This document shows positions 5,993-47,021 of a DNA stretch of 58,902 bases, piece after piece. Origin of the DNA: Candidatus Uhrbacteria bacterium (lineage in GTDB: Bacteria; Patescibacteriota; Patescibacteriia; UBA9934). The translations under genes and the position numbers were made by a program. The notes below the pieces were generated by a model, which saw only the letters and a program-made list of their open reading frames with translations, made no database searches and was not told where the DNA came from. The stretch is from contig CAINGB010000030.1 of assembly GCA_903848275.1 (NCBI GenBank), positions 1-58,902 on the forward strand. The letters are read 5' to 3'. How positions within the stretch are numbered: the first letter of the stretch is position 1; each line of letters opens with the position of its first letter.

Positions 5993-6562
5993 ATGACCGA
6001 CTTCCATACGGCACCGATACCGATGAGCAGTAATTTTGCGCCGAAAACTTTTAGTCCGAGCATGATGGCTCCCCCACTGGCTGCCCATGCGCCGAGTCGA
6101 CAAGAAGATACGGTAGGCGAAGAAAGTGAGAGCTTGAAGCACTTGGTGGCTCAGCCTTATAGTGAACGATCGCACAAGACTGAGAAAGCTGAAGCGCCAA
6201 AAGTTAAGAAGGCTGAAGTGAAAGCCCACGAGAAAGCAGAACCTGAACATGAATCGCATCATGGTGGTATTACCTTGAAAACTGGTGGAGCATTAATAGT
6301 TGAAGGAGCTCGGGGATTGAGGCGACAGGTAGCAAAGATGGTGCATCATGGTAAATCTACTTATGCCGGTTTGAGTCATGGTGACCAGCATTTGTTCGTA
6401 GATAAGATTGTGAAGCACGCTAGAGCCTTGACGACTGGCTCAAAGATTGGTTTTACAACTAGACGTAATATTAAGGAGTCACTGCGTGCCGATTATTTGA
6501 AAGGTAAAATCACTTCGACTGACGTCAAGAAAATGAACGAATTAACTGACACTTTGCATTAA
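5993..6562 (+). CDS. hypothetical protein
   Basis: 189 aa ORF; Lys/Glu-rich middle, no recognisable motif. Confidence 0.5.
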   Translation: MTDFHTAPIPMSSNFAPKTFSPSMMAPPLAAHAPSRQEDTVGEESESLKHLVAQPYSERSHKTEKAEAPKVKKAEVKAHEKAEPEHESHHGGITLKTGGALIVEGARGLRRQVAKMVHHGKSTYAGLSHGDQHLFVDKIVKHARALTTGSKIGFTTRRNIKESLRADYLKGKITSTDVKKMNELTDTLH

Positions 6563-6565
6563 TCT

Positions 6566-7615
6566 ATGCTCGAAAAAATCTTTTTGACCATGCTGCTGTT
6601 CGTGCCGGTGACGCTCGTCGCACATTTCCTCAACCTCTCTCCCCTCTTGGTCTTCTTCCTCTCGGCCGTGGCGATTGTGCCGCTGGCTAAGTTTATTGGT
6701 GAAGCGACGGAGGAACTCGCGGTGCATACAGGGCCGGCGCTTGGCGGATTATTAAGCGCGACGTTTGGTAATGCCACCGAGCTGATTATTGCGATTTTTG
6801 CGATTCGGGCGGGGCTCGTTGAGGTGGTTAAGGCGTCGATTACTGGTTCGATTATTGGTAACTTGCTGTTGGTACTTGGCATGTCGATTTTCTTCGGTGG
6901 GATGAAGTACAAGAAGCAGAAGTTCAACAAGACGTTGGCCATGGCGAGTGCGTCGACCTTGCTCTTGGCAGTGATTGCTTTGATTATTCCAGCCATCTTC
7001 GTCATTACGGCACCGGAAGCTGGAAGTAAGATTATTGAGGAGTTGAGTGTGGCGGTGTCGTTTTTGATGATTGGCGTTTATTTGGCCAGTTTGTTGTTCT
7101 CGCTGCGAACACATAAGCATTTGTATGCGGCTGAGGTTGGTAAGGAAGAAGCTGACTGGAGCTTGGCCAAGAGCCTAGTCATCCTAATTGTGGCCACTTT
7201 GGCCGTAGCCTGGATGAGTGAAATCTTAGTCGGTGCGATTGAACCGGCGGTAGCGGTGCTTGGTTGGACTGACTTGTTCATAGGTGTCATCTTCATTGCG
7301 ATTATTGGAAATGCGGCGGAACACACGAGTGCGATTACCATGGCGGTTAAAAATAAAATGGACCTGACACTGCAGATCTCCATTGGTTCCGCCACCCAAA
7401 TTGCCATGTTTGTGACGCCGGTACTCGTCCTGATTAGCGTCTTCTTCCCTACTCAAATGAGCCTGATTTTTAACACGTTCGAACTGGTGGTCATTCTTTT
7501 CTCCGTATTCATCGCGAACTTGATTATTCAGGACGGAGAGACGAATTGGTTCGAGGGGTTACAGCTGCTCGTGGCGTACGGAATAATTGCCGTAGCATTC
7601 TTCTTTCACCCGTAA
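6566..7615 (+). CDS. CaCA family calcium/cation:proton antiporter
   Basis: 349 aa polytopic; two alpha-repeat motifs GNATELIIAI and GNAAEHTSAI. Confidence 0.85.
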   Translation: MLEKIFLTMLLFVPVTLVAHFLNLSPLLVFFLSAVAIVPLAKFIGEATEELAVHTGPALGGLLSATFGNATELIIAIFAIRAGLVEVVKASITGSIIGNLLLVLGMSIFFGGMKYKKQKFNKTLAMASASTLLLAVIALIIPAIFVITAPEAGSKIIEELSVAVSFLMIGVYLASLLFSLRTHKHLYAAEVGKEEADWSLAKSLVILIVATLAVAWMSEILVGAIEPAVAVLGWTDLFIGVIFIAIIGNAAEHTSAITMAVKNKMDLTLQISIGSATQIAMFVTPVLVLISVFFPTQMSLIFNTFELVVILFSVFIANLIIQDGETNWFEGLQLLVAYGIIAVAFFFHP

Positions 7616-10770: not shown

Positions 10771-11349
10771 TTATTTGCTGAATTGGAAAGTGGCGAGAAT
10801 ATGTGCGGCGGCGACCGACTGAGTGTCTTTCGTGTCATTTGGCAAGCTTAGAGCATAGAAACTACCGTGCTCGGCCCAGATTTCGTAGGTAGAACCGATG
10901 CCACCGATAGTGATGTTAGAGGCAGGTTGACCGTCGAGAGTTGTGGCGCCGTCGAGCGTGGTCTCGCGACGTTTGCCGTCCTTGAGAAGATCCATGAGGC
11001 TAGTAAAATTCTTAGCTGTCGATAACTCATCGTCGACTGCGTTGTACTGCGCAAAAGTTGTATAAGTTGGCCAGCAGTGAGCCGAGAAGTCGTAGCTAGG
11101 ACCTGGTTCCCCACCGTTAACAGCCGAGTTGGCGGCAAAGTCGGCCTGGGCTTTGGTTGTTTCCGGGCTGACGAGAGTCACGCCGTCAATCTTGGTATCT
11201 TCTGTGGCTGTCCAATTGCTTGGATACTCGAAGGAAATGCCACAAGCGGAGTTGCGGTAAGTTTTATACGTAACGGCAGTGCTTGATGATGAACAGCCGG
11301 CGCCAATGAGGAGTAGGCCGAGAGAAGAGATGAGGAGAAGTTTTTTCAT
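10771..11349 (-). CDS. lipoprotein, function unknown
   Basis: 192 aa from MKKLLLISSLGLLLIGAGC (lipobox); the 233-aa track ORF extends into the rnc 3' end. Confidence 0.7.
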   Translation of the reverse strand: MKKLLLISSLGLLLIGAGCSSSSTAVTYKTYRNSACGISFEYPSNWTATEDTKIDGVTLVSPETTKAQADFAANSAVNGGEPGPSYDFSAHCWPTYTTFAQYNAVDDELSTAKNFTSLMDLLKDGKRRETTLDGATTLDGQPASNITIGGIGSTYEIWAEHGSFYALSLPNDTKDTQSVAAAHILATFQFSK

Positions 11350-34555: not shown

Positions 34556-35574
34556 ACGAGGTCGAGATTAGGGTTCGCTGATAAGACCAGAGGGTCAATG
34601 AAGTTTTGGGCCAGAGCTCGATAGTAGCCGGCGACGGCAATCATGGCGGCGTTGTCGAGGGCGTAGGCGAAGGGCGGAACGTGGACGTCGACCTGATGCT
34701 CGGCGCCGAGAGTTTGGAGACGAGTGCGTAAGGAAGTGTTAGCGGCCACACCACCTGCTAAGATAATTGATTTGGGGGAATGCTCGACGATGGCTCGTTT
34801 AGTCTTTTTAATAAGCACATCAATAACGGCCTCCTGAAATGAGGCGGCAATATCTGCTCTGAATTTTGCATCAGCGAGACTCGCTTCATTCTCTCGTAGC
34901 TTGTAGAGGACGCTGGTTTTGAGGCCGGCAAAACTGAAGTCGAGATTAGACTTATCGAGGAGAGCTCGAGGAAATGAGAAAGCTGTTGGATTACCGAGTT
35001 TAGCCAGTTGCTCGACTTGCGGACCACCAGGATATGGCAGGCCGAGCATCTTGGCGACTTTGTCGAAAGCTTCACCGGCCGCGTCGTCGATAGTTTCGCC
35101 CAAGCGTTCGAAGCTGCCGTGGCCGCGCATTAACACGAGTTCAGTGTGGCCGCCGGAAACGATGAGGGCGAGGGCTGGGAATTGCGGAGGAGTGAGGGTG
35201 TCGAGCCATGTCGCGTAAATGTGACCTTCGAGGTGGCAGACTGGGATGAGGGGCTTGTGCCAGGCCCAAGCTAGGGCTTTAGCGGCTTCCACACCGACAC
35301 GGAGGGCTGGGGCAAGGCCCGGACCAGCGGTGACGGCAAGCGCGTCGAGGTCAGCGGCAGAAACTTGAGCGTCAGCTAGGGCCTGAGTAATCATGGGGAA
35401 AAGATAGGCCAAATGCTCACGAGCGGCGACTTCGGGGACAACGCCACCGTAGGCCTGGTGGATGTCTATCTGGCTGCGGACGAGGCTGCTCTCCAACGTC
35501 AAAACGTCGCCTTGGCCCGAGAGGACGGCGACGGCTGTTTCGTCACAGCTGGATTCGATAGCTAAAATTCTCAT
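34552..35574 (-). CDS. tsaD: tRNA N6-adenosine threonylcarbamoyltransferase TsaD
   Basis: 340 aa; MRILAIESSCDETA, HLEGH, GGVAAN. Confidence 0.9.
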   Translation of the reverse strand: MRILAIESSCDETAVAVLSGQGDVLTLESSLVRSQIDIHQAYGGVVPEVAAREHLAYLFPMITQALADAQVSAADLDALAVTAGPGLAPALRVGVEAAKALAWAWHKPLIPVCHLEGHIYATWLDTLTPPQFPALALIVSGGHTELVLMRGHGSFERLGETIDDAAGEAFDKVAKMLGLPYPGGPQVEQLAKLGNPTAFSFPRALLDKSNLDFSFAGLKTSVLYKLRENEASLADAKFRADIAASFQEAVIDVLIKKTKRAIVEHSPKSIILAGGVAANTSLRTRLQTLGAEHQVDVHVPPFAYALDNAAMIAVAGYYRALAQNFIDPLVLSANPNLDLV

Positions 35575-35617
35575 AAAAGGCGTGGTATACTGAAATCCAG
35601 TAATAATCTTCCCTACT

Positions 35618-36196
35618 ATGCCCTACACCGAGCAACAATTCAACTTACCGGAACTGGCAGGATTGTCGGCCAAACAGATTGAGGTTCATTTGAAATTATA
35701 TGCTGGCTACGTCAAAAATGTGAATGCGGTGCAGGCGAAGATCGCCGAATACATGATGGACAGTACGGCTAATGCGCTGGCTATCGCAGAATTGACGAGA
35801 AGGTTTGGGTTTGAGTTTAACGGCATGAGGTTGCATGAGCTGTACTTTGAGGCGTTGGGCGGGAACGACGAGATGGCCGAGGGTGCGCTGACAAAGGCTC
35901 TAGCTGCGCAGTATGGCAGCATGGAGAACTGGCTAGCAGAGTTTAAGGCCATGGGCGTCATGCGTGGGATTGGTTGGGTGCTGCTGACCTACGATGAGAA
36001 GAGCAGGACTTTCCACAACGTATGGGTAAGCGACCACGAGCTTGGCCACTTGGCGGACACGAAAATCGTCATCGCGATGGATGTGTGGGAACATGCCTTT
36101 ATGGTGGACTACATGCCAGCCCAGAGAGCGGATTATGTGACGGCGTTCTTGGCGAACTTGAAGTGGGACGTAATAACTGCCCGTTTTATTGATTAA
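35618..36196 (+). CDS. Fe/Mn superoxide dismutase
   Basis: 192 aa; C-terminal DVWEHAF..DY metal-binding motif, N-terminal H..LY pattern. Confidence 0.85.
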   Translation: MPYTEQQFNLPELAGLSAKQIEVHLKLYAGYVKNVNAVQAKIAEYMMDSTANALAIAELTRRFGFEFNGMRLHELYFEALGGNDEMAEGALTKALAAQYGSMENWLAEFKAMGVMRGIGWVLLTYDEKSRTFHNVWVSDHELGHLADTKIVIAMDVWEHAFMVDYMPAQRADYVTAFLANLKWDVITARFID

Positions 36197-37234: not shown

Positions 37235-38743
37235 ATGGACGCTCAATCGCACCAGGATTTAATGGATGATTTCGCCGAGTTGCGGGCAATTGTTGGTGAT
37301 AATATTAAACGATTAGGGAGATTTGAAAGACCACTGGGGCGGCACGCTCGGCCAGGGACGGCCAGAGTACTAGGTGATATGACCGATAGGACCAATGAGA
37401 CCTATAGGAAATTGGAAAATGACTTGAAGGCGTTGCAAGCCGCCAGAATAGAAGAAAATGCGGAGGAGTTGATTGCCGAAAAGAAACGAATAGCCTACGT
37501 GGTGCGGAGTTTGCAGGGCGTGACTGGCTCGCTCCTCGCGGCGACCGATTGGCAGGCGCCAACGTTCGCGAGTTCGGAGCAGTCACAGGCTGGGACGCAG
37601 ACGGGCCAGATTACGGGGACGGTTAATGATTACAAACGTGACCACCATGCTGACGCCACAAATTATGAACGACGTTGGCGGCAAGCGTACATTGATGCGC
37701 CGCTGCGGTTCCCTCCGCAAGTTTATGTGACGGCGAGCGGCATGGCGGCGTTTAGCACGGTACTGACGACATTGGCGACGGAGGACAAGATAAACGGGCC
37801 GATTATTGCGGGCAGCGCTTGTTATTTTGAAAATAAGTTATTGCTCGAGAAGTTTTTCCCGGGGCAGATCAGTTACGTCGATGAGATGAACACGGAAAGT
37901 GTGCTGGCGGCGATCAACGAGTTGCAACCAGCGGCGATATTCTTCGATACGCTCGGCAATACGGAGGACGTGGCGGCACCAGATATGGCGAGCTTAGTGC
38001 CGAGAATTATCGAGGAGATTAAGCGACCGACGATTTTAGTGCTAGATACCACGGGGACGGCGACCAGCTACCAGCCACTGCGTGACTTTCCACGGGGACC
38101 GTGTAAGCTCAGTTTGATTGTGGTGGAGAGTTTGCTTAAGTACCATCAGTTTGGCTTTGACCGCGTGAGTGCTGGGCTGATGTGGCGGACTGGACTGACG
38201 CCACTGGGGATTTTTGGCAACCGTATGCACTTGGGGACAGGACTGGTGGATGCTTCCGTGCTCACTTTGCCACAGCCGAATAGAAAGTTGTTCGATAAGA
38301 GGCTGAAACGGATGGGTAGGAATGCGAATTTAGTGGCCAAGGCCCTGGATGATCACGCGCGAACAACAAGGATGACGGCGCTGGCTGAGGTTGTGTACCC
38401 GGGGCTGCCGAGTCACCCGGCTTACGAGTGGATGAGTAAGCGGTATTTTCAGGGTAGTTTCTTGGTGTTTAAGTTAAAGCCGCAATATTGCTTTACGGCG
38501 TACTACAAAAAATTCTTAGCACTGGCCGTAGACGAAGCGCGCCAGGCTGGCGTCGACCTAAACGGTGGTAGTAGCTTTGGTTTTGACACGACACGAGTGT
38601 ATTTGACGGCTTTGTATGCAGCCAAGCACGCCACACCGTTTATTCGGATTAGTGTGGGGACGGAAACGCTGTACGAGGTGGAGAAGTTGATCGCGGTGTT
38701 GACCCGGGCCGTCGATAAACTGGCGTTTAGGTTGCCGCTTTAG
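37235..38743 (+). CDS. divergent Cys/Met-metabolism-type PLP-dependent enzyme with about 130-aa N-terminal extension
   Basis: ASGMAAFSTV, DTLGNT, ESLLKYHQFG (putative PLP lysine). Confidence 0.55.
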   Translation: MDAQSHQDLMDDFAELRAIVGDNIKRLGRFERPLGRHARPGTARVLGDMTDRTNETYRKLENDLKALQAARIEENAEELIAEKKRIAYVVRSLQGVTGSLLAATDWQAPTFASSEQSQAGTQTGQITGTVNDYKRDHHADATNYERRWRQAYIDAPLRFPPQVYVTASGMAAFSTVLTTLATEDKINGPIIAGSACYFENKLLLEKFFPGQISYVDEMNTESVLAAINELQPAAIFFDTLGNTEDVAAPDMASLVPRIIEEIKRPTILVLDTTGTATSYQPLRDFPRGPCKLSLIVVESLLKYHQFGFDRVSAGLMWRTGLTPLGIFGNRMHLGTGLVDASVLTLPQPNRKLFDKRLKRMGRNANLVAKALDDHARTTRMTALAEVVYPGLPSHPAYEWMSKRYFQGSFLVFKLKPQYCFTAYYKKFLALAVDEARQAGVDLNGGSSFGFDTTRVYLTALYAAKHATPFIRISVGTETLYEVEKLIAVLTRAVDKLAFRLPL

Positions 38744-39027
38744 CGCATTCCTACCTTTTCTTTGATCTGCACGACTTCGAGTTGAAGTTCGGTGATTTGC
38801 GGGAGAACTGAGACCTCGAGAATTTCAGCAATGTCAGTCACGATTTCCTTGCACATCTTTTTCATGTCGACGTCTAGCCTGTCTATCCGTGTGTTTAGAC
38901 GGTTTTCAAGTACCTTATTCATGGCGTACATTTCGTCGCGAAGTTCGAGCTTAAAAATGTGATTGTTGGCCTCGAGTAACTCAATCATGAGAGCCCGGAT
39001 GGCCGCCATGTCGTTTTCGTGCAACAT
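38740..39027 (-). CDS. small coiled-coil-like protein, paralog P1
   Basis: 95 aa; C-terminal EIVTDIAEILEVSVLPQITELQLEVVQIKEKVG shared with P2 and P3. Confidence 0.65.
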   Translation of the reverse strand: MLHENDMAAIRALMIELLEANNHIFKLELRDEMYAMNKVLENRLNTRIDRLDVDMKKMCKEIVTDIAEILEVSVLPQITELQLEVVQIKEKVGMR

Positions 39028-39075
39028 AAAAGCAAAGTGAAGAATAAGGCGGGGAGCATCTGGGGAGATGAGGTT

Positions 39076-39084
39076 ATTCTACCA
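39076..39084 (-). promoter_or_regulatory. extended -10 TGgTAGAAT of P1
   Basis: attctacca on the plus strand; conserved position in all three paralogs. Confidence 0.5.
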
Positions 39085-39103
39085 TAAGTTTTAACGACAA
39101 AAA

Positions 39104-39127
39104 AATACCGGCAGAAGCTGGTATTTT
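39104..39127. terminator. hairpin terminator after tRNA-Glu (A-run and T-run on both sides)
   Basis: aaaaaataccggc agaa gctggtatttttt. Confidence 0.7.
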
Positions 39128-39128
39128 T

Positions 39129-39203
39129 TGGTGACTCCAGGGGGAGTCGAACCCCCGTTACAGGCTTGAAAAGCCCGTGTCCTAACCATTAGACGATGGA
39201 GCC
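39129..39203 (-). tRNA. tRNA-Glu (anticodon TTC), CCA encoded
   Basis: Acceptor GGCTCCA/TGGAGTC, anticodon loop TTTTCAA, T-loop TTCGACT. Confidence 0.95.
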
Positions 39204-39223
39204 ATATGGTCAAATGTGCGGGT

Positions 39224-39252
39224 AATATAGTTGATACTAGCCTTTTAGTCAA
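39224..39252 (-). promoter_or_regulatory. tRNA-Glu promoter TTGACT-N17-TATATT
   Basis: Minus-strand ttgact (39247-39252) and tatatt (39224-39229), about 20 nt upstream of the tRNA 5' end. Confidence 0.55.
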
Positions 39253-39270
39253 CCATGAGCTAGTTAGCGT

Positions 39271-39303
39271 AAGAATCCCAGGCTGCATGAGCCTGGGATT
39301 CTT
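39271..39303 (-). terminator. 13-bp hairpin immediately after the P2 stop (no clear U-run)
   Basis: aagaatcccaggc tgcatga gcctgggattctt. Confidence 0.4.
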
Positions 39304-39304
39304 A

Positions 39305-39568
39305 TTACACACCAACCTGCTCCTTCAACCGAGCCACGTCGTATTGTAGTTCGGTAATTTGCGGCAGGACTGAACCGTCGAGAAGTTCGGCGATCTCAGT
39401 AACGATTTCTCGTTTCATAGCCTTAGTAGTGGCGTGGATTTCGTCTCGAATGTCGCGCTTGAGCAGGTGATTATTCTGCTCAACGATATCTTTAACAATA
39501 CCGGGTACAGTGTCCTTGATGATGGTCGTAACAATGGTGGCGATTACCACCTGGTCGTTTTTGGTCAT
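39305..39568 (-). CDS. small coiled-coil-like protein, paralog P2
   Basis: 87 aa; the first 14 codons are nucleotide-identical to P3. Confidence 0.65.
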   Translation of the reverse strand: MTKNDQVVIATIVTTIIKDTVPGIVKDIVEQNNHLLKRDIRDEIHATTKAMKREIVTEIAELLDGSVLPQITELQYDVARLKEQVGV

Positions 39569-39609
39569 AGAGTGAACAAAAAAGAATAAGGTGGGGAGAT
39601 TCTGGGGAT
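39526..39609. repeat. 84-nt direct repeat, left copy (P2 5' CDS plus leader)
   Basis: 83 of 84 nt identical to 40916..40999 by hand alignment (mismatch at 39588/40978). Confidence 0.85.
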
Positions 39610-39616
39610 TGAGGCT

Positions 39617-39625
39617 ATTCTACCA
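39617..39625 (-). promoter_or_regulatory. extended -10 TGgTAGAAT of P2
   Basis: attctacca on the plus strand. Confidence 0.5.
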
Positions 39626-39777
39626 CAAGTTTTAGTTGGTCAAAAATGAGCTGTGCGTATAACAACAAACCCCGTGCTGAGAACAACAGCGTTCCCAGAA
39701 CGGGGCTGTTGCTCGCACAGGGCGAGAGCGATGGTGGTCATCGGTTAATACCACCGGTTGATGCCACGACTGACCGA

Positions 39778-40440
39778 TCAGTGTCGACGCGGGACGGGGT
39801 CGGGGGTGAGGGTGAACGTAGAGGTAGGGGCGGCGGTGGGACGGAATGCCTCCGCCTCATCTTCCTCACGGAACTGTGTCCTCTCGTCCTCCTTGAGGTG
39901 GCTTTCGAGAGTGTTCCGTGTCGACGGGTTGGCCGGCAGGCCGAACACTACCGTCACTGTCGCGAGTGCCTCCTCACGAGTGTAGGAAACGCTGTTGCCG
40001 CAGGTATTGCCTACGTACACTTCGACGAACTCGTCACCCCTGGGCTCGAAGCACAGGACGTCGCCGCTCTCCGCTTTGGAGGTGCACAGCCGATTGCCAT
40101 ACGCGCTGGTCTTCCACCCGCTATAGCTGAAGCGGGGGTGATTTGCGTCCCAGAGCAATTGAGGCCACCAGTGCTGAAGCTGCTCCATGAGCAGAGCCTC
40201 GCTCACGGGGTTTGTGTACCCGCCAGCAGGACTCGCGACCAACTGGGGCACGATCTGGTAGCTTTCCGTCGGGTCGATGACATACGTCTGACACCCTATC
40301 TTCAGCACCAAGGGCGTCGTGTCCAACGGCCGGGGCGATGGGACGTAGACGAACCCAGGCCTCGCGTCGTACTCCTCGATCGACGGCTTTGCTGTCTCCG
40401 GATCACCGGCGAATGCTGCACTCAGAAAAAGAACCATCAT
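39778..40440 (-). CDS. secreted Cys-containing protein (GC-rich insert)
   Basis: 220 aa from MMVLFLSAAFAG; GGAGG 5 nt upstream; antisense ORF 39646..40485 judged spurious. Confidence 0.55.
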   Translation of the reverse strand: MMVLFLSAAFAGDPETAKPSIEEYDARPGFVYVPSPRPLDTTPLVLKIGCQTYVIDPTESYQIVPQLVASPAGGYTNPVSEALLMEQLQHWWPQLLWDANHPRFSYSGWKTSAYGNRLCTSKAESGDVLCFEPRGDEFVEVYVGNTCGNSVSYTREEALATVTVVFGLPANPSTRNTLESHLKEDERTQFREEDEAEAFRPTAAPTSTFTLTPDPVPRRH

Positions 40441-40588
40441 GGGAACCTCCATGCTCGGGAAGAAAAGTCCGAGCTTGTTTTATAACAATAGCAAAAAATA
40501 TGTATTTTGGCAATGGGAAATGGAAGAAAAGTGGCTGTTATGAGCCAAAATTCCAATTTTACTACTACTCAAATAACTCCGCAAACCA

Positions 40589-40612
40589 AATACCAGGCAA
40601 CGGCCTGGTATT
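40589..40612. terminator. hairpin terminator after P3
   Basis: aataccaggc aacg gcctggtatt flanked by A-run and T-run. Confidence 0.65.
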
Positions 40613-40628
40613 CTTTTTGCGAATGAGA

Positions 40629-40958
40629 CTAAACGCCAACCCTTGCTTTTAACAGCGCGACATCGTACCTCAGTTCCGCGATCGGGGTGAGGACGGCGAC
40701 GTCCAAGATTTCGGCGATATCGGAGACGATTTCTGTGCGCATGGTGTGCATGTCGGCACGGAGTTGCTGCATATCCGCTTTTAGTTCACTGCGTAGAGCT
40801 TGTTTGGCGGCATGAATTTCGTCACGCAAATCGAGTTTTAACATGTGATTGTTTTGCTCGATGATATCGGTGACAATGTCCTTGATCATGCCTGGTACAG
40901 TTGTCTGAATGGCGCTCGTAACAATGGTGGCGATTACCACCTGGTCGTTTTTGGTCAT
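40629..40958 (-). CDS. small coiled-coil-like protein, paralog P3
   Basis: 109 aa; same N-terminus MTKNDQVVIATIVT and C-terminal motif as P2. Confidence 0.65.
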   Translation of the reverse strand: MTKNDQVVIATIVTSAIQTTVPGMIKDIVTDIIEQNNHMLKLDLRDEIHAAKQALRSELKADMQQLRADMHTMRTEIVSDIAEILDVAVLTPIAELRYDVALLKARVGV

Positions 40959-40999
40959 AGAGTGAACAAAAAAGAATTAGGTGGGGAGATTCTGGGGAT
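40916..40999. repeat. 84-nt direct repeat, right copy (P3 5' CDS plus leader)
   Basis: See 39526..39609. Confidence 0.85.
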
Positions 41000-41005
41000 G
41001 AAGTG

Positions 41006-41014
41006 ATTGTACCA
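41006..41014 (-). promoter_or_regulatory. extended -10 TGgTACAAT of P3
   Basis: attgtacca on the plus strand. Confidence 0.5.
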
Positions 41015-41066
41015 CAACCCGAGGAATGATAAACTTGGATTAGTATTAGCTGATAATTTGTTGTTT

Positions 41067-42119
41067 ATGGAAAAGTCGGGAGAGTTTTTACATAATATTG
41101 CCAAAGTTAATATATTAGGTGCCGAGGTTGGGGTTAAAACAAAAACCAGAAGAAACATTCGGAATCGCTACGAAGGTGCCAAGAGTGAAACAGCGAAAGT
41201 ATTAGATATACCAGGCCAGTTGGGCAAGTTCGTGACGAAAGATCATGTCACAGCTTTGTTACGAGTACTTGGTCAAGCAGAAGGTTTGAAATTTGCCGGT
41301 TTTACCAATGACAGTATTCAGATGCAAGACCTGAACGAGACTTTGCGCAACTTTGACGAAAGATTCGAGGCAAATAGAGATAAGTCAGCAGCTTTTAGTC
41401 CTGAGGACTTGAAAATGTTTTCGTGGCTCAATAAACTTATTGAAGAACGCGTTCTCGATGGCTCGCTGGTAAAATTAACAGAATCTATTCCTGGCTCTGA
41501 AGATTTTTTGTCTGAGCAGTCGTCAGCCCAAGAAATGCGTCAGGAAACAGTTGAGCAGCTAGCTGTTTTGATTAATCGCGTAGCTAAGATTAAGCAGCAA
41601 GCACGAGGCAGCGTTGAGTCGTTCGAAGTTGGGCGATTGACGCAATTACTCGATGAAGTGGAGACTTTTAGCGAACGCTACATTGGGGCATTAGCTTTTG
41701 ATAATCCTGAGTTAGCCGAAAATATTCACCAGGAATATCTCAATAGTGTGAGGGTGGTGCGAGCTGAACTGAAAAAATACAAAGAGAACGCTGGTGATTT
41801 GTATCTGGCCAAACACTTACTGGTGGCGGCGCATTATATTGATAGATCGGGCGTACTGACAGCGTCCTATCAAACGGAAGCAGTTAGAAATTTTGCGCAG
41901 AAGCCTGGTATTGAACGTTTATATTCAGCGTTGGTTGACCTCCACGCCAAAGCTGACGACAAACCAATGCTCTATCACTTCAAGCAGCATACTTTTGATT
42001 TTGAGCGGAAAGTGAAATATATTGGGACGTACGGTTCACTCATGCATATCCGGCCGGAAGTGACGCTGTACGCTGGATGCATGGCTGAATATTTCAAGCA
42101 CCGGGAAGACGAAAAATAA
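41067..42119 (+). CDS. hypothetical 350-aa protein (the track ORF starts at TTG 41007)
   Basis: ATG 41067 lies 9 nt after GATAAT (leaderless pattern); no motif recognised. Confidence 0.55.
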   Translation: MEKSGEFLHNIAKVNILGAEVGVKTKTRRNIRNRYEGAKSETAKVLDIPGQLGKFVTKDHVTALLRVLGQAEGLKFAGFTNDSIQMQDLNETLRNFDERFEANRDKSAAFSPEDLKMFSWLNKLIEERVLDGSLVKLTESIPGSEDFLSEQSSAQEMRQETVEQLAVLINRVAKIKQQARGSVESFEVGRLTQLLDEVETFSERYIGALAFDNPELAENIHQEYLNSVRVVRAELKKYKENAGDLYLAKHLLVAAHYIDRSGVLTASYQTEAVRNFAQKPGIERLYSALVDLHAKADDKPMLYHFKQHTFDFERKVKYIGTYGSLMHIRPEVTLYAGCMAEYFKHREDEK

Positions 42120-46240: not shown

Positions 46241-46689
46241 ACAGTTTTGGTTAATCGGCTTTGTATACCCGCCAACAGTTTAGCCGAAGCCGCTGCAAAA
46301 ATTGGGATAGTTGCGTAGATTGCCGCTGCCTTAACCTCGTCATAAGCATGACTAGTAATATTTCTTTTTTCACGGAAGTCAAACCAAGCACTCACATCAT
46401 CGATTAAGCCAACTTCGCCGCCAATGCGCAAAATATCACGAAAACCAAGTTCGTCGATAGTCTCTGGGCTAAAGCTGGTCACTTCTAGAAATCGCTTAAG
46501 AGTTTTGTGAGCTATCTCGTAAGTTAAAGTGAAACGTCGAATCGCAGCATCACGATTCAGCGATGCCTCAATCCGATTGTCGGTTTTTGCATCTAGAACT
46601 TCCTCTAAACTAGCCTGGTCCTTAGCGAAAATTGATAAATCGAGCTCATCTTTAAGCATACCCTTAAATAGTAACATAGGATAAAACAA
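46237..46689 (-). CDS. HEPN-type nucleotidyltransferase substrate-binding protein (HI0074 family); start uncertain
   Basis: 150 aa; RRFTLTYEIAHKTLKRFL and REKRNITSHAY (R.4-6H HEPN motif); 4-nt overlap with the MNT gene. Confidence 0.7.
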   Translation of the reverse strand: MFYPMLLFKGMLKDELDLSIFAKDQASLEEVLDAKTDNRIEASLNRDAAIRRFTLTYEIAHKTLKRFLEVTSFSPETIDELGFRDILRIGGEVGLIDDVSAWFDFREKRNITSHAYDEVKAAAIYATIPIFAAASAKLLAGIQSRLTKTV

Positions 46690-46705
46690 AAATCCCCCAT
46701 CCTAG

Positions 46706-46718
46706 CCAGCTGAGCTGG
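46706..46718. repeat. CCAGCTGAGCTGG palindrome, copy 3 (reverse-complement orientation)
   Basis: Context ctagccagctgagctggtccgg. Confidence 0.65.
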
Positions 46719-46748
46719 TCCGGAGCGAGGGATGATTGAGCGCAACTA

Positions 46749-47021
46749 TTATTCGCGTGGGCGAGCTGAGTTGACGCTGATGGTGCGACCACCGAACTCG
46801 GTCTGGTTGAACATGTCAACGGCCTTGTTCATGTCGGCTTCGTTCTCGAACTCGACGAAGGCGAAGCCGCGCTTCTTACCGGTTTCGCGGTCGATTGGCA
46901 TGAAGACCGAAACGACGTTACCAGCGGCCATAAAGTGAGCCTTGAGTTCTTCTTCCGTGGCTGCGTAAGGAACGCCACCGACGAAAACGCGTGTTGTGTC
47001 TGCCATACTGTGTGAGCCCAT
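46749..47021 (-). CDS. RRM-type RNA-binding protein (start 47021 or 47006)
   Basis: RNP-2 VFVGGV and RNP-1 KRGFAFVEF. Confidence 0.85.
   Translation of the reverse strand: MGSHSMADTTRVFVGGVPYAATEEELKAHFMAAGNVVSVFMPIDRETGKKRGFAFVEFENEADMNKAVDMFNQTEFGGRTISVNSARPRE

What the first reader, a model, noticed from the sequence alone, without database searches (positions are those of the whole stretch)
38740..41035. Triplicated small coiled-coil-like gene family with a conserved SD-less C-rich leader around tRNA-Glu
Three minus-strand paralogs (95, 87 and 109 aa) share a C-terminal motif E-I-V-(T/S)-(D/E)-I-A-E-(I/L)-L-(D/E)-x-(S/A)-V-L-x-x-I-x-E-L-(Q/R)-x-(D/E)-V-x-x-(I/L)-K-x-x-V-G. Each has an extended -10 box (TGgTAGAAT or TGgTACAAT). 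Each also has an aligned leader of about 55 nt, CAUCCCCAGAAUCUCCCCACCUUAUUCUU..., with no SD before the AUG. The leader is better conserved than most of the coding sequence. Its complement is a strong SD look-alike (AAGGUGGGGAG). The genes interleave with tRNA-Glu and a GC-rich secreted-protein gene. I do not recognise the family. A conserved leader points to post-transcriptional control, or to a functional antisense or cis RNA.
Basis: partly seen in the sequence, partly recalled or inferred. Interest (0 to 1): 0.7.

Follow-up and report, generated by a model that had tools for sequence, protein, structure and literature searches.

The report
Start-codon hairpin leader, CPR coiled-coil genes
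Three copies of an uncharacterised small single-helix protein gene in a Candidatus Uhrbacteria-like (CPR) genome each carry a conserved leader whose C-rich 5' end pairs with G-rich codons 6-12, folding the start codon into a hairpin; this looks like a previously undescribed cis-acting RNA control element.

Summary
There are three minus-strand paralogs of 95, 87 and 109 aa. Each has a TGgTA(G/C)AAT extended -10 box and a leader of about 42 nt with no SD. The leader is more conserved (79% identity) than the CDS (51-59%). The proteins are predicted to be one continuous helix (pLDDT 92). They match no Pfam, NCBIfam, PHROG, PDB or viral family. The family has 216 clusters and was found only in Patescibacteria/Uhrbacteria MAGs, at 3-5 copies per genome.

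The leader is not a product of recent duplication. A C-rich box (CUCCCCA) lies 7-9 nt after the -10 box in about 30 of 41 family genes from many genomes. It is complementary to G-rich codons 6-12 of its own gene, and the pairing co-varies:
- CCACC:GGUGG
- CCGCC:GGCGG
- CCCAGA:UCUGGG
- CCCCGC:GCGGGG
- CCCCGU:ACGGGG
- CCAUGAAG:CUUCGUGG

Cognate leader/CDS pairs beat 100,000 of 100,000 permutations. Start regions are unusually structured (mean z -1.47, against +0.19 for neighbouring genes). Synonymous sites in codons 1-15 are constrained.

Lacking an SD is ordinary in this lineage; only about one third of genes have one. I found no support for an antisense role.

Best reading: a cis-acting 5'UTR-CDS clamp that gates translation and/or 5'-end decay. 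It is bistable in genes B and C. The structure is supported; its regulatory effect is inferred.

The parts
38740..39027 (-). Gene A, 95 aa, family member of the two-box 'A type'
   Evidence: ORF. Family HMM E = 5e-33. Orthologous A-type genes occur in L004, L006 and L045.
39076..39084 (-). Extended -10 promoter of gene A (TGGTAGAAT). Predicted TSS is the A at 39069.
   Evidence: Sequence. The same box precedes family genes in other genomes. The rule of TSS about 7 nt after the -10 box is from PMC12641261. The TSS has not been mapped.
39028..39069 (-). Leader A, about 42 nt, no SD. Box 1 CTCCCCAGATG at 39067-39057; box 2 CTCCCCGCC at 39056-39048; then TTATTC and a U-rich tract.
   Evidence: The minimum-free-energy fold pairs both boxes with the CDS.
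38994..39007 (-). CDS partner of leader A, codons 7-12 (GGCGG CCAUC C GGG). GGCGG pairs with box 2; CAUC and GGG pair with box 1.
   Evidence: 12 bp in three stacked helices. The G-C pair replaces the A-U pair of B/C.
39305..39568 (-). Gene B, 87 aa, family member of the 'BC type'
39617..39625 (-). Extended -10 promoter of gene B (TGGTAGAAT). Predicted TSS is the A at 39610.
39569..39610 (-). Leader B. Box 1 ATCCCCAG at 39609-39602; box 2 CTCCCCACC at 39598-39590; TTATTC; U-tract.
   Evidence: Box 2 is invariant in 10 BC-type genes from 7 genomes.
39547..39551 (-). GGUGG at codons 6-8 of gene B. It pairs either with leader box 2 (CCACC) or with the CDS CCACC at 39540-39536.
   Evidence: 70 of 70 cells paired. 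The two states are near-isoenergetic. The local hairpin is also picked up at 39536-39551.
39555..39585 (-). Inner AU-rich hairpin of gene B. The leader U-tract pairs with A-rich codons 2-5, and the AUG sits at the apex.
   Evidence: Accessibility profile.
40629..40958 (-). Gene C, 109 aa, family member of the 'BC type'
   Evidence: AlphaFold2 predicts a single helix over residues 3-107, pLDDT 92. An ortholog is in L045 at 1163-1594.
41006..41014 (-). Extended -10 promoter of gene C (TGGTACAAT). Predicted TSS is the A at 40999.
40959..40999 (-). Leader C. Box 1 ATCCCCAG at 40999-40992; box 2 CTCCCCACC at 40988-40980.
40926..40941 (-). GGUGG (40941-40937) and the CDS CCACC (40930-40926) of gene C: clamp partner and alternative local hairpin.
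39129..39203 (-). tRNA-Glu(UUC). An interleaved neighbour, not part of the element. It has its own promoter (39252-39224) and terminator.
   Evidence: In the syntenic locus L004 it lies on the opposite strand.
39778..40452 (-). GC-rich 224-aa ORF with a hydrophobic N-terminus and a GGAGG SD. An interleaved neighbour, not part of the element.
   Evidence: Orthologs are in L004 at 6529-7191 and L045 at 1781-2446. The only family hint is weak, NlpC/P60 RipD at E = 0.001.

Best explanation
Each of the three genes is a separate transcription unit driven by an extended -10 promoter. The mRNA starts 2-4 nt before a C-rich box (CUCCCCA).

The leader of about 42 nt and the first 12 or so codons fold into one long irregular hairpin:
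- At the base, the 5'-terminal C-box or boxes clamp onto G-rich codons 6-12.
- In the middle, a U-tract just upstream of the AUG pairs with the A-rich codons 2-5.
- At the apex sits the AUG.

I read this as a cis-acting post-transcriptional element. It holds the message in a closed form in which the 5' end is base-paired and the 30 nt around an SD-less start codon are largely double-stranded. Ribosome loading, and probably 5'-end-dependent decay, would therefore be gated by opening of the clamp.

In genes B and C the clamp partner GGUGG can pair equally well with a CCACC six nucleotides downstream in the CDS. This gives a two-state switch (clamp closed or clamp released).

The product is a single-helix protein of about 100 aa, presumably oligomeric and cytoplasmic, of unknown function. 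It is specific to Patescibacteria and present in several copies per genome.

Shown here: conservation, complementarity, co-variation, excess structure and synonymous-site constraint.

Inferred: the TSS, the effect on translation or stability and its direction, and what opens the clamp.
For: 1. The leader is conserved outside the window.
- The same -10 box plus C-box architecture precedes family genes in L001, L004, L006, L007, L010, L011, L013-L016, L020-L024, L034, L036, L038, L039, L041 and L045-L048.
- A regex for the -10 box plus C-box over 287 kb gave its clear hits only at family genes.

2. The helix is supported.
- RNAalifold and pair counting on 14 A- and BC-type leaders find CC(A/G)C(C/U):GG(U/C)GG. 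It is paired in 70 of 70 cells, with A-U in 10 sequences, G-C in 4, and three C-G to U-G changes. One of 500 shuffles reaches this, and slid controls pair in 20-56% of cells.
- The seven RG(U)-type genes share a 7-bp helix whose only internal changes are wobble-compatible; three non-pairs sit at the helix ends.

3. The pairing differs between lineages but is kept in each.

| Leader | CDS | Where |
|---|---|---|
| CCGCC + GAUG + CCC | GGCGG + CAUC + GGG | gene A |
| CCAUC + CCCAGA | GGUGG + UCUGGG | L045 (the residues here are L-S-G instead of I-R-A) |
| CCCCGC | GCGGGG | L020, L046 |
| CCCCGU | ACGGGG | L047 (a synonymous Leu UUA/UUG site co-varies with the leader) |
| CCCCGUA | UACGcGGG | L048 |
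| UCCCCaGAGAA | UUCUCcGGGGA | L022 |
| CCAUGAAG | CUUCGUGG | L013 |
| CCCACGA | UCGUGGG | L014 |

4. Permutation test on 15 representative genes: summed cognate duplex energy is -209.3, against -171.0 +/- 8.7 for permuted leader/CDS pairings. None of 100,000 permutations is as low. For each of the four CDS subtypes, the cognate leader subtype gives the lowest duplex energy.

5. The minimum-free-energy fold of TSS to +48 pairs the C-box with the CDS in 25 of 27 genes. Mean z is -1.47, with 26 of 27 negative. For 58 other start regions from the same contigs the mean z is +0.19 (Mann-Whitney p = 1e-10).

6. At identical amino acids, the codon is identical in 83% (BC type) and 90% (A type) of cases within codons 1-15, against 50% and 48% in the rest of the CDS.

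7. In all 10 BC-type genes the two alternative pairings of GGUGG differ by only -2.2 to +1.2 kcal/mol.

8. Positions -15 to -4 and +3 to +16 are more paired than in control genes (0.37-0.43 unpaired, against 0.51-0.56).
Against: - The outer helix is short: 5-6 bp in B and C, 7-8 bp in the RG(U) type. It closes a loop of 38-60 nt. Consensus energies are small (-6.0, -4.5 and -1.5 kcal/mol).
- Individual z-scores and synonymous-recoding p-values are modest (p = 0.002-0.26 for most C-box genes).
- With 150 nt of downstream sequence the clamp loses probability in several genes.
- Within subtypes there is almost no double-sided co-variation. Most of the signal lies between subtypes and partly reflects register shifts of a C-run on a G-run.
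- Box 1 of the B/C type has no conserved partner anywhere in the mRNA. In L040/L042 the C-box sits in the loop of a local 5' hairpin. The box therefore seems to have a role beyond this helix.
- The sequences are related, so the statistics overstate independence.
- No TSS, expression or probing data exist.
- The direction of the effect (repression or presentation of the AUG) is not determined.
Confidence: 0.5

Rival explanations
1. The same hairpin is real but acts positively. It would be an SD-independent start-site presentation element: it displays the AUG in an apical loop next to an unpaired pyrimidine-rich tract (UUAUUC). A ribosome would then select this internal AUG on a leadered mRNA without an SD. 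This is analogous to the structured, SD-less rpsA initiation region of E. coli (from my own knowledge).
For: Positions -3 to +1 are more accessible than in control genes (0.69-0.79 unpaired, against 0.56-0.64). The UUAUUC(U) motif between box 2 and the U-tract is highly conserved yet unpaired in the folds. The lineage largely does without SDs, so leadered genes need another start-site determinant.
Against: The 12 nt on each side of the AUG are more paired than in other genes. Other start regions in these genomes avoid structure, and such structure normally lowers initiation. Nothing shows that this organism uses S1-type recruitment.
Confidence: 0.2
2. The C-box is mainly a site recognised in trans. 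The reader could be an RNA-binding protein or a G-rich small RNA, or the mRNA could use the box as an anti-SD-like seed. Complementarity to its own codons would be secondary, for example an auto-inhibited state that the factor relieves.
For: Box 1 of the B/C type is conserved without any cis partner. In L040/L042 the box is displayed in a hairpin loop. Two boxes occur with variable spacing of 8-16 nt. A similar AAUCU(C/U)CCCUAC lies directly before the SOD start codon in the window and in L004. From my own knowledge, C-rich UCCC loops are the seeds of staphylococcal regulatory RNAs that bind SD sequences.
Against: No candidate factor was identified. Leader/CDS co-evolution and the synonymous constraint need the cis pairing in any case. 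The -10 box plus C-box combination is otherwise confined to family genes in 287 kb.
Confidence: 0.15
3. The C-box is a DNA element: an operator, or an initially transcribed promoter element just downstream of the -10 box. Its complementarity to G-rich Arg/Gly/Val codons would then be incidental.
For: The box sits at a nearly fixed 7-9 nt after the -10 hexamer in most genes, while its distance to the ATG varies. Box 1 of B/C has no RNA partner.
Against: The element is asymmetric and non-palindromic. Box-to-box spacing varies from 8 to 16 nt, which fits poorly with a rigid DNA-binding dimer. In six genes the box lies 10-15 nt after the -10 box. Leaders match their own CDS better than in 100,000 permutations. 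One-sided changes are wobble-compatible (C to U opposite G). Synonymous sites in the partner codons are constrained.
Confidence: 0.1
4. The leader similarity is only a residue of recent duplication or gene conversion among the three window copies, or it reflects an antisense gene on the plus strand.
For: Genes B and C are identical through the first 42 nt of the CDS and differ at only a few leader positions, which is compatible with gene conversion. The complement of box 2 reads AAGGUGGGGAG.
Against: The leader is conserved in orthologs and paralogs from at least 15 other MAGs, with protein identities down to about 30%. Flanking DNA is at background identity. On the plus strand nothing conserved follows the SD look-alike: a 2-codon ORF in C and no ATG in B. 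Upstream neighbours differ between genomes.
Confidence: 0.03

Closest known systems
RNA thermometers and other 5'-UTR hairpins that occlude the initiation region (ROSE, fourU; the cspA mRNA, whose 5' UTR and first codons refold). From my own knowledge.
   Same: A cis-acting fold of the leader that includes the start codon. A weak AU/U-tract helix next to the AUG. No ligand-binding pocket is evident.
   Different: There is no SD to mask. The main helix joins the extreme 5' end to codons 6-12. No link to heat- or cold-shock genes is shown. Temperature response is untested. There is no Rfam match.
5'-terminal stem-loop mRNA stabilisers (E. coli ompA leader, B. subtilis aprE and ermC leaders). From my own knowledge.
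   Same: The first nucleotides of the transcript are predicted to be base-paired. The genes have strong promoters and appear to be monocistronic. L040/L042 carry a genuine local 5'-terminal hairpin.
   Different: In most members the partner lies inside the coding region and the helix encloses the start codon, so translation would open it. The 5' end is predicted, not mapped.
hok/sok-type type I toxin mRNAs, with fold-back inhibition by long-range pairing of the 5' end. From my own knowledge.
   Same: Long-range pairing from the very 5' end that would keep an mRNA closed and stable. Multi-copy small genes.
   Different: The partner is at codons 6-12, not the 3' end. The protein is a hydrophilic helix of 87-109 aa, not a membrane peptide under 60 aa. 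No antisense RNA is evident.
E. coli rpsA SD-less structured initiation region. From my own knowledge.
   Same: A leadered mRNA without an SD whose start site lies in a defined conserved fold.
   Different: Different sequence and fold. There are no GGA loop motifs. Autoregulation by S1 is not applicable here.
Uncharacterised coiled-coil mini-proteins (weak profile hits to Apolipoprotein, DUF1664, VASP_tetra)
   Same: A single long amphipathic helix. The N-terminus carries a variable number of repeats of about 12 residues (AIQxTVPGMIKS).
   Different: All hits are far below the curated cut-offs and scattered over 45 unrelated families. There is no PDB match by sequence or fold.

Membership tests
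Any Rfam 15 family | Covariance-model score at or above the gathering threshold on the leader | tested here: not met
   only the tRNA passes. No hit up to E = 10 covers a full leader plus start region.
RNA thermometer (ROSE / fourU) | SD sequence base-paired by a U-rich or UYGCU strand of a 5'-UTR hairpin | tested here: not met
   There is no SD in any of the three leaders. The U-tract pairs with A-rich codons instead.
RNA thermometer (ROSE / fourU) | Temperature-dependent melting that frees the initiation region | not testable with these tools
   Needs probing or toeprinting at several temperatures.
5'-terminal stem-loop mRNA stabiliser | Helix beginning within a few nt of the transcript 5' end | tested here: inconclusive
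   With the TSS 7 nt after the -10 box, the C-box starts at +2 to +5 in most genes and at +5 to +9 in six genes. The TSS is not mapped.
Type I toxin-antitoxin (hok-like) | Small hydrophobic membrane toxin plus an antisense RNA | tested here: not met
   The product is a hydrophilic single helix of 87-109 aa. No conserved antisense feature was seen.
Pfam / NCBIfam / PHROG protein families | Profile score above the curated cut-off | tested here: not met
   Among 73 distant members only scattered sub-threshold coiled-coil hits appear.
Phage or mobile-element protein | Relatives encoded on viral contigs or in phage families | tested here: not met
   No relative in IMG/VR. The best PHROG hit has E = 2e-4 ('hol-like chemotaxis') for one paralog only.
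New 'C-box clamp' leader motif (proposed here) | C-rich box within 15 nt downstream of an extended -10 box and upstream of a family gene | tested here: met
   Met by genes A, B and C and by about 30 of 41 family genes. Absent or different in L012, L017, L018/L019 and L025/L037.
New 'C-box clamp' leader motif (proposed here) | The box is complementary to codons 6-12 of the same gene, with co-variation | tested here: met

The most novel reading that the evidence does not exclude
The C-box clamp is a lineage-specific riboregulator of Patescibacteria. It would be a bistable 5'UTR-CDS switch whose two C-boxes are read by a trans factor or a physical signal. It would couple translation initiation on SD-less, leadered mRNAs to mRNA protection for an abundant, multi-copy coiled-coil protein family. 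That would make it a new class of cis-regulatory RNA and a natural model for how leadered mRNAs are initiated in bacteria that mostly use leaderless or SD-less messages.
Probability: 0.3. Interest if true: 0.7.

Novelty: new variant of a known kind. Interest (0 to 1): 0.55.

Why it matters
Almost nothing is known about gene regulation or translation initiation in CPR/Patescibacteria, because most cannot be grown alone.

These contigs suggest that only about one third of genes have an SD and that many mRNAs are leaderless. The family studied here is a clear exception. It has a leader of about 42 nt, no SD, and a fold that is conserved and co-evolving around the start codon.

If the fold controls expression, it would be one of the first candidate cis-regulatory RNAs specific to this radiation. 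It would also mark an abundant, multi-copy protein family of unknown function (216 clusters, no Pfam entry) as worth characterising.

There is a practical point as well. The leader has no in-frame stop, so gene callers wrongly extend these ORFs through it.

Tried and rejected
- Known RNA families: Rfam at gathering and at E <= 10 gave nothing on the leaders.
- Known protein families: Pfam, NCBIfam and PHROGs on the three proteins. Pfam on 73 distant members. PDB by profile. Foldseek against PDB gave 0 hits for a single helix. The JGI name 'Holliday junction resolvase-like endonuclease' for P0016 finds no support in any library searched here.
- Phage origin: no relatives in IMG/VR.
- Antisense ORF or RNA: nothing conserved follows the SD look-alike on the plus strand.
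- One consensus structure for all single-box leaders: RNAalifold on a sequence alignment found none, because the C-run/G-run register differs by 2 nt between the CGU-GG and CGG-GG subtypes. Subtype alignments gave short helices.
- First cognate versus non-cognate duplex test, with long segments that included the promoter: too noisy. It was replaced by segments restricted to the leader.
- A cis partner for box 1 of the B/C type anywhere in the mRNA, including the 3' end: none conserved.
- The -10 box plus C-box hit at window 46677 (+): this is the terminator hairpin of the RRM-protein gene on the minus strand.
- Pairing of the leader with the 16S 3' tail: the anti-SD is the canonical CCUCC, and the C-rich leader cannot pair with it.
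- Metagenome scan for more loci: mostly duplicates.
- Literature: no described Patescibacteria motif of this kind was found.

Full report
**1. What is in the window**

Reading 38400-41400 on the minus strand and listing ORFs confirms three paralogous ORFs:
- A: 38740-39027, 95 aa
- B: 39305-39568, 87 aa
- C: 40629-40958, 109 aa

Each ORF is preceded by an extended -10 box:
- TGGTAGAAT at 39084-39076
- TGGTAGAAT at 39625-39617
- TGGTACAAT at 41014-41006

None has a matching -35 hexamer, which is why the two-hexamer scan does not list them.

The 27-mer TCCCCAGAATCTCCCCACCTTATTCTT occurs exactly three times at up to 3 mismatches. Zero matches were expected by chance. Each copy lies between a -10 box and an ATG. 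There is no SD-like tetramer in front of any of the three ATGs.

Between the genes lie tRNA-Glu(UUC) at 39129-39203 and a GC-rich 224-aa ORF with a hydrophobic N-terminus and a GGAGG SD at 39778-40452.

Among the three copies, identity by region is:

| Region | Identity |
|---|---|
| Promoter + leader | 79% |
| Codons 1-15 | 59% |
| Rest of CDS | 51% |
| Flanks (background) | 35-39% |

**2. The organism and the protein family**

The window ends in the 3' part of a 16S rRNA gene whose tail is the canonical GGAUCACCUCCUUUCU.

A profile search of 5.8 billion proteins found only 27 relatives. Several are labelled Candidatus Uhrbacteria, lineage Patescibacteria/Parcubacteria group. An exhaustive profile search of 1.84 billion cluster representatives found 216 clusters at E <= 1e-3. 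Almost all are 70-150 aa.

Loci fetched from GTDB genomes are Uhrbacteria or Patescibacteria MAGs. A few records are labelled 'uncultured Gammaproteobacteria', and at least one of these (L008) encodes the same family proteins as the Uhrbacteria-like contig L001.

Genomes carry several copies:
- at least 3 on the 1.09-Mb contig behind L001/L045;
- 3 in UBA11707;
- 3 in DeMMO3_42;
- 5 in SO_2016_GW1_148.

The gene order is shared by the window, L004 and L045:

methyltransferase - gene C - GC-rich ORF - (gene B - tRNA-Glu) - gene A - PLP enzyme - AstE/AspA - SOD - TsaD

No library recognises the protein:
- Pfam, NCBIfam and PHROGs;
- Pfam on 73 distant members, which gave only scattered sub-threshold coiled-coil hits;
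- PDB sequences;
- IMG/VR.

AlphaFold2 with the family alignment predicts one uninterrupted helix over residues 3-107, with mean pLDDT 92. Foldseek finds nothing in the PDB. N-terminal repeats of about 12 residues (AIQxTVPGMIKS) vary from 0 to 5 copies between members.

**3. The leader is conserved far beyond this genome**

I collected 41 distinct family genes from 48 loci. About 30 of them have the same layout:
- an extended -10 box;
- 7-9 nt further on (10-15 nt in six genes), a C-rich box, consensus CUCCCCA;
- a (U)UAUUCUU motif;
- a U-rich tract;
- the ATG.

The A and B/C types carry two boxes, 8-16 nt apart. The one look-alike in the window, at 46677, is the terminator of the RRM-protein gene on the other strand.

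Across seven genomes the B/C-type leader is 65% identical and codons 1-15 are 81% identical. The rest of the CDS is 48% identical and the flanks are about 40%.

**4.

Single-sequence folds of seven leaders already showed a recurring hairpin that encloses the AUG.

On an alignment of 14 A- and B/C-type leaders, RNAalifold predicts CC(A/G)C(C/U):GG(U/C)GG:
- It is paired in 70 of 70 cells.
- One pair is A-U in the 10 B/C-type genes and G-C in the 4 A-type genes.
- Three changes are C-G to U-G wobbles.
- Only 1 of 500 column shuffles reaches this.
- Sliding the partner drops pairing to 20-56%.

In gene A the first box also pairs (CCC/GAUG with CAUC/GGG), giving 12 bp.

Other lineages keep the complementarity with different sequences:
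- L045: box 1 CCCAGA pairs with UCUGGG, although the encoded residues changed from I-R-A to L-S-G. Box 2 CCAUC pairs with GGUGG.
- L020 and L046: CCCCGC:GCGGGG.
- L047: CCCCGU:ACGGGG. Here a synonymous Leu UUG/UUA site changes together with the leader.
- L048: CCCCGUA:UACGcGGG.
- L022: UCCCCaGAGAA:UUCUCcGGGGA.
- L013: CCAUGAAG:CUUCGUGG.
- L014: CCCACGA:UCGUGGG.

A single consensus for all single-box leaders fails, because the C-run slides by 2 nt on the G-run between the CGU-GG and CGG-GG subtypes. Within subtypes, helices of 7 bp and 5 bp are recovered. In the 7-bp helix the internal changes are wobble-compatible and the few non-pairs sit at the helix ends. The 5-bp helix shows one end mismatch, and one row lost its box through my trimming.

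**5. Statistics**

- *Permutation test.* I took 15 representative genes and computed duplex energies between the leader (box to -14) and the CDS (+13 to +48). The cognate sum is -209.3 kcal/mol, against -171.0 +/- 8.7 when CDS segments are permuted among genes. None of 100,000 permutations is as low. For each of the four CDS subtypes, the cognate leader subtype gives the lowest duplex energy.
- *Folding.* The minimum-free-energy fold from the box to +48 pairs the box with the CDS in 25 of 27 genes. Mean z against dinucleotide shuffles is -1.47, with 26 of 27 negative. For 58 other start regions from the same contigs the mean z is +0.19 (Mann-Whitney p = 1e-10).
- *Synonymous sites.* Where two family members have the same amino acid, the codon is identical in 83% (B/C type) and 90% (A type) of cases within codons 1-15. 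In the remainder it is 50% and 48%.
- *Synonymous recoding.* Recoding the partner codons weakens the duplex in most C-box genes, with p = 0.002-0.26 each.

These sequences are related, so none of these numbers is a clean probability. They do all point the same way.

**6. Anatomy of the fold**

I place the TSS 7 nt after the -10 box, which is the general rule (PMC12641261, read). The transcripts then start at 39069, 39610 and 40999, which is 2-4 nt before box 1.

The fold has three parts:
- The clamp: box 2, plus box 1 in gene A, pairs with codons 6-12.
- The inner helix: the leader U-tract pairs with the A-rich codons 2-5. These encode the conserved K-N-D.
- The apex: it holds positions -4 to +1.

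Compared with control genes, positions -15 to -4 and +3 to +16 are more paired (0.37-0.43 unpaired against 0.51-0.56). Positions -3 to +1 are more open (0.69-0.79 against 0.56-0.64).

In B/C-type genes, GGUGG is followed after 6 variable nt by an invariant CCACC. This forms a local hairpin that competes with the leader. In all 10 such genes the two states differ by only -2.2 to +1.2 kcal/mol.

**7. Context that changes the interpretation**

Lacking an SD is not unusual in this lineage. I examined 58 non-family genes called on related contigs, including a contig identical to part of the window:
- about one third have an SD, and these are mostly the GC-rich genes;
- about one third have a TAnnnT hexamer 4-12 nt before the ATG, so they look leaderless;
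- about one third have neither.

What is unusual about the family is a long leader without an SD, combined with a conserved structured start region. Other genes in these genomes avoid such structure.

**8. Mechanism**

The best-supported reading is a cis-acting 5'UTR-CDS clamp. It keeps the 5' end base-paired and the initiation region largely double-stranded. It would gate ribosome loading and probably 5'-end-dependent decay. In B and C it would act as a two-state switch.

The existence of the helix is supported. The regulatory consequence is inference.

Rivals:
- The same fold may present the AUG for SD-independent initiation instead of hiding it. The accessibility of the apex fits this.
- The C-box may be read in trans. 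Three observations favour this. Box 1 of B/C has no cis partner. In L040/L042 the box lies in the loop of a local 5' hairpin. A related AAUCU(C/U)CCCUAC sits immediately before the SOD start codon.
- A DNA operator is disfavoured by the asymmetry of the box, the variable box spacing, the wobble-type substitutions and the co-evolution with codons.
- Pure gene conversion and an antisense role are contradicted by the cross-genome conservation and by the absence of anything conserved on the plus strand.

**9. Comparison with known systems and verdict**

The element works most like two known kinds:
- initiation-region hairpins (RNA thermometers; the cspA leader);
- 5'-terminal stem-loop stabilisers (ompA type), with a resemblance to the 5' fold-back of hok mRNA.

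It fails the defining features of each that could be tested:
- there is no SD to mask;
- the partner lies in the CDS;
- the product is not a membrane toxin;
- there is no Rfam match.

I therefore file it as a new variant of a known kind: a cis-regulatory mRNA leader structure attached to an uncharacterised, Patescibacteria-specific, multi-copy coiled-coil protein family.

Interest is moderate, at 0.55. The structure signal is consistent, and it lies in a lineage where regulation is essentially unexplored. Against that, the helices are short, the function is inferred, and the organisms are hard to work with experimentally.

Noticed in passing
window ~35570-35625 (+); L004 ~11100-11150 (-): The superoxide dismutase gene has a TGGTATACT extended -10 box and a short SD-less leader, AUCCAGUAAUAAUCU(U/C)CCCUACU, directly before the AUG. 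This resembles the family leader (AUCCCCAGAAUCUCCCCAC) but has no spacer to the start codon. It may be a shared C-box element or regulon.
   Followed up: partly
L001, L004, L038-L040, L043 (= window reverse strand from 19272), 58 called genes: Only about one third of genes have an SD. About one third have a -10-like hexamer 4-12 nt before the ATG and so look leaderless. SD-bearing genes are mostly the GC-rich ones (0.55-0.66 GC), which hints at a foreign or distinct gene class.
   Followed up: partly
window 39778-40452 (-); L004 6529-7191; L045 1781-2446: A conserved GC-rich (~0.60) 220-224-aa ORF with a hydrophobic N-terminus and a strong GGAGG SD sits among lower-GC genes. The only family hint is weak: NlpC/P60 RipD-like, E = 0.001, residues 116-150.
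   Followed up: no
window 39129-39203 (-) versus L004 7478-7552: tRNA-Glu is on the same strand as the family genes in the window but on the opposite strand in the syntenic L004 locus, which also lacks gene B. The locus has been rearranged around the tRNA.
   Followed up: no
window 39097-39128, 40589-40612; L004 6310-6345, 7455-7480: Hairpins downstream of unrelated genes share the same stem sequence, (A)AAUACCAG-loop-CUGGUAUUU(U), as if one terminator module were reused.
   Followed up: no
P0007; L045 1163-1594: Gene callers extend family ORFs upstream through the leader, giving for example 'NPSPQLLPTLFFFVHS-M...' or a 143-aa call for the gene C ortholog. The leader has no in-frame stop, so database entries for this family often have false N-termini.
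   Followed up: yes
P0072: A 1246-aa protein matches the family profile (positions 20-73) nine times, so the core motif also occurs as a tandem repeat in a giant protein.
   Followed up: no
L008, L016, L020, L021, L023: MAG records titled 'uncultured Gammaproteobacteria' carry family genes. L008 encodes the same family proteins as the Uhrbacteria-like contig L001. The taxonomic labels are probably wrong.
   Followed up: partly
L018, L019, L025, L037 leaders: A divergent subfamily has a longer leader. It begins AAUCCCAUG/AAUCCCUGG at the predicted TSS and has a hairpin whose loop is GAGGGAGGGA, about 35 nt before the AUG. This is a different partner arrangement for the 5' C-rich end and was not analysed further.
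   Followed up: no
window 46680-46745: The inverted repeat AUCCCCCAUCC...GGGAUGAU followed by a T-run on the minus strand is the terminator of the RRM-domain protein gene (46749-47021, minus strand). It mimics the -10 box plus C-box pattern on the plus strand.
   Followed up: yes
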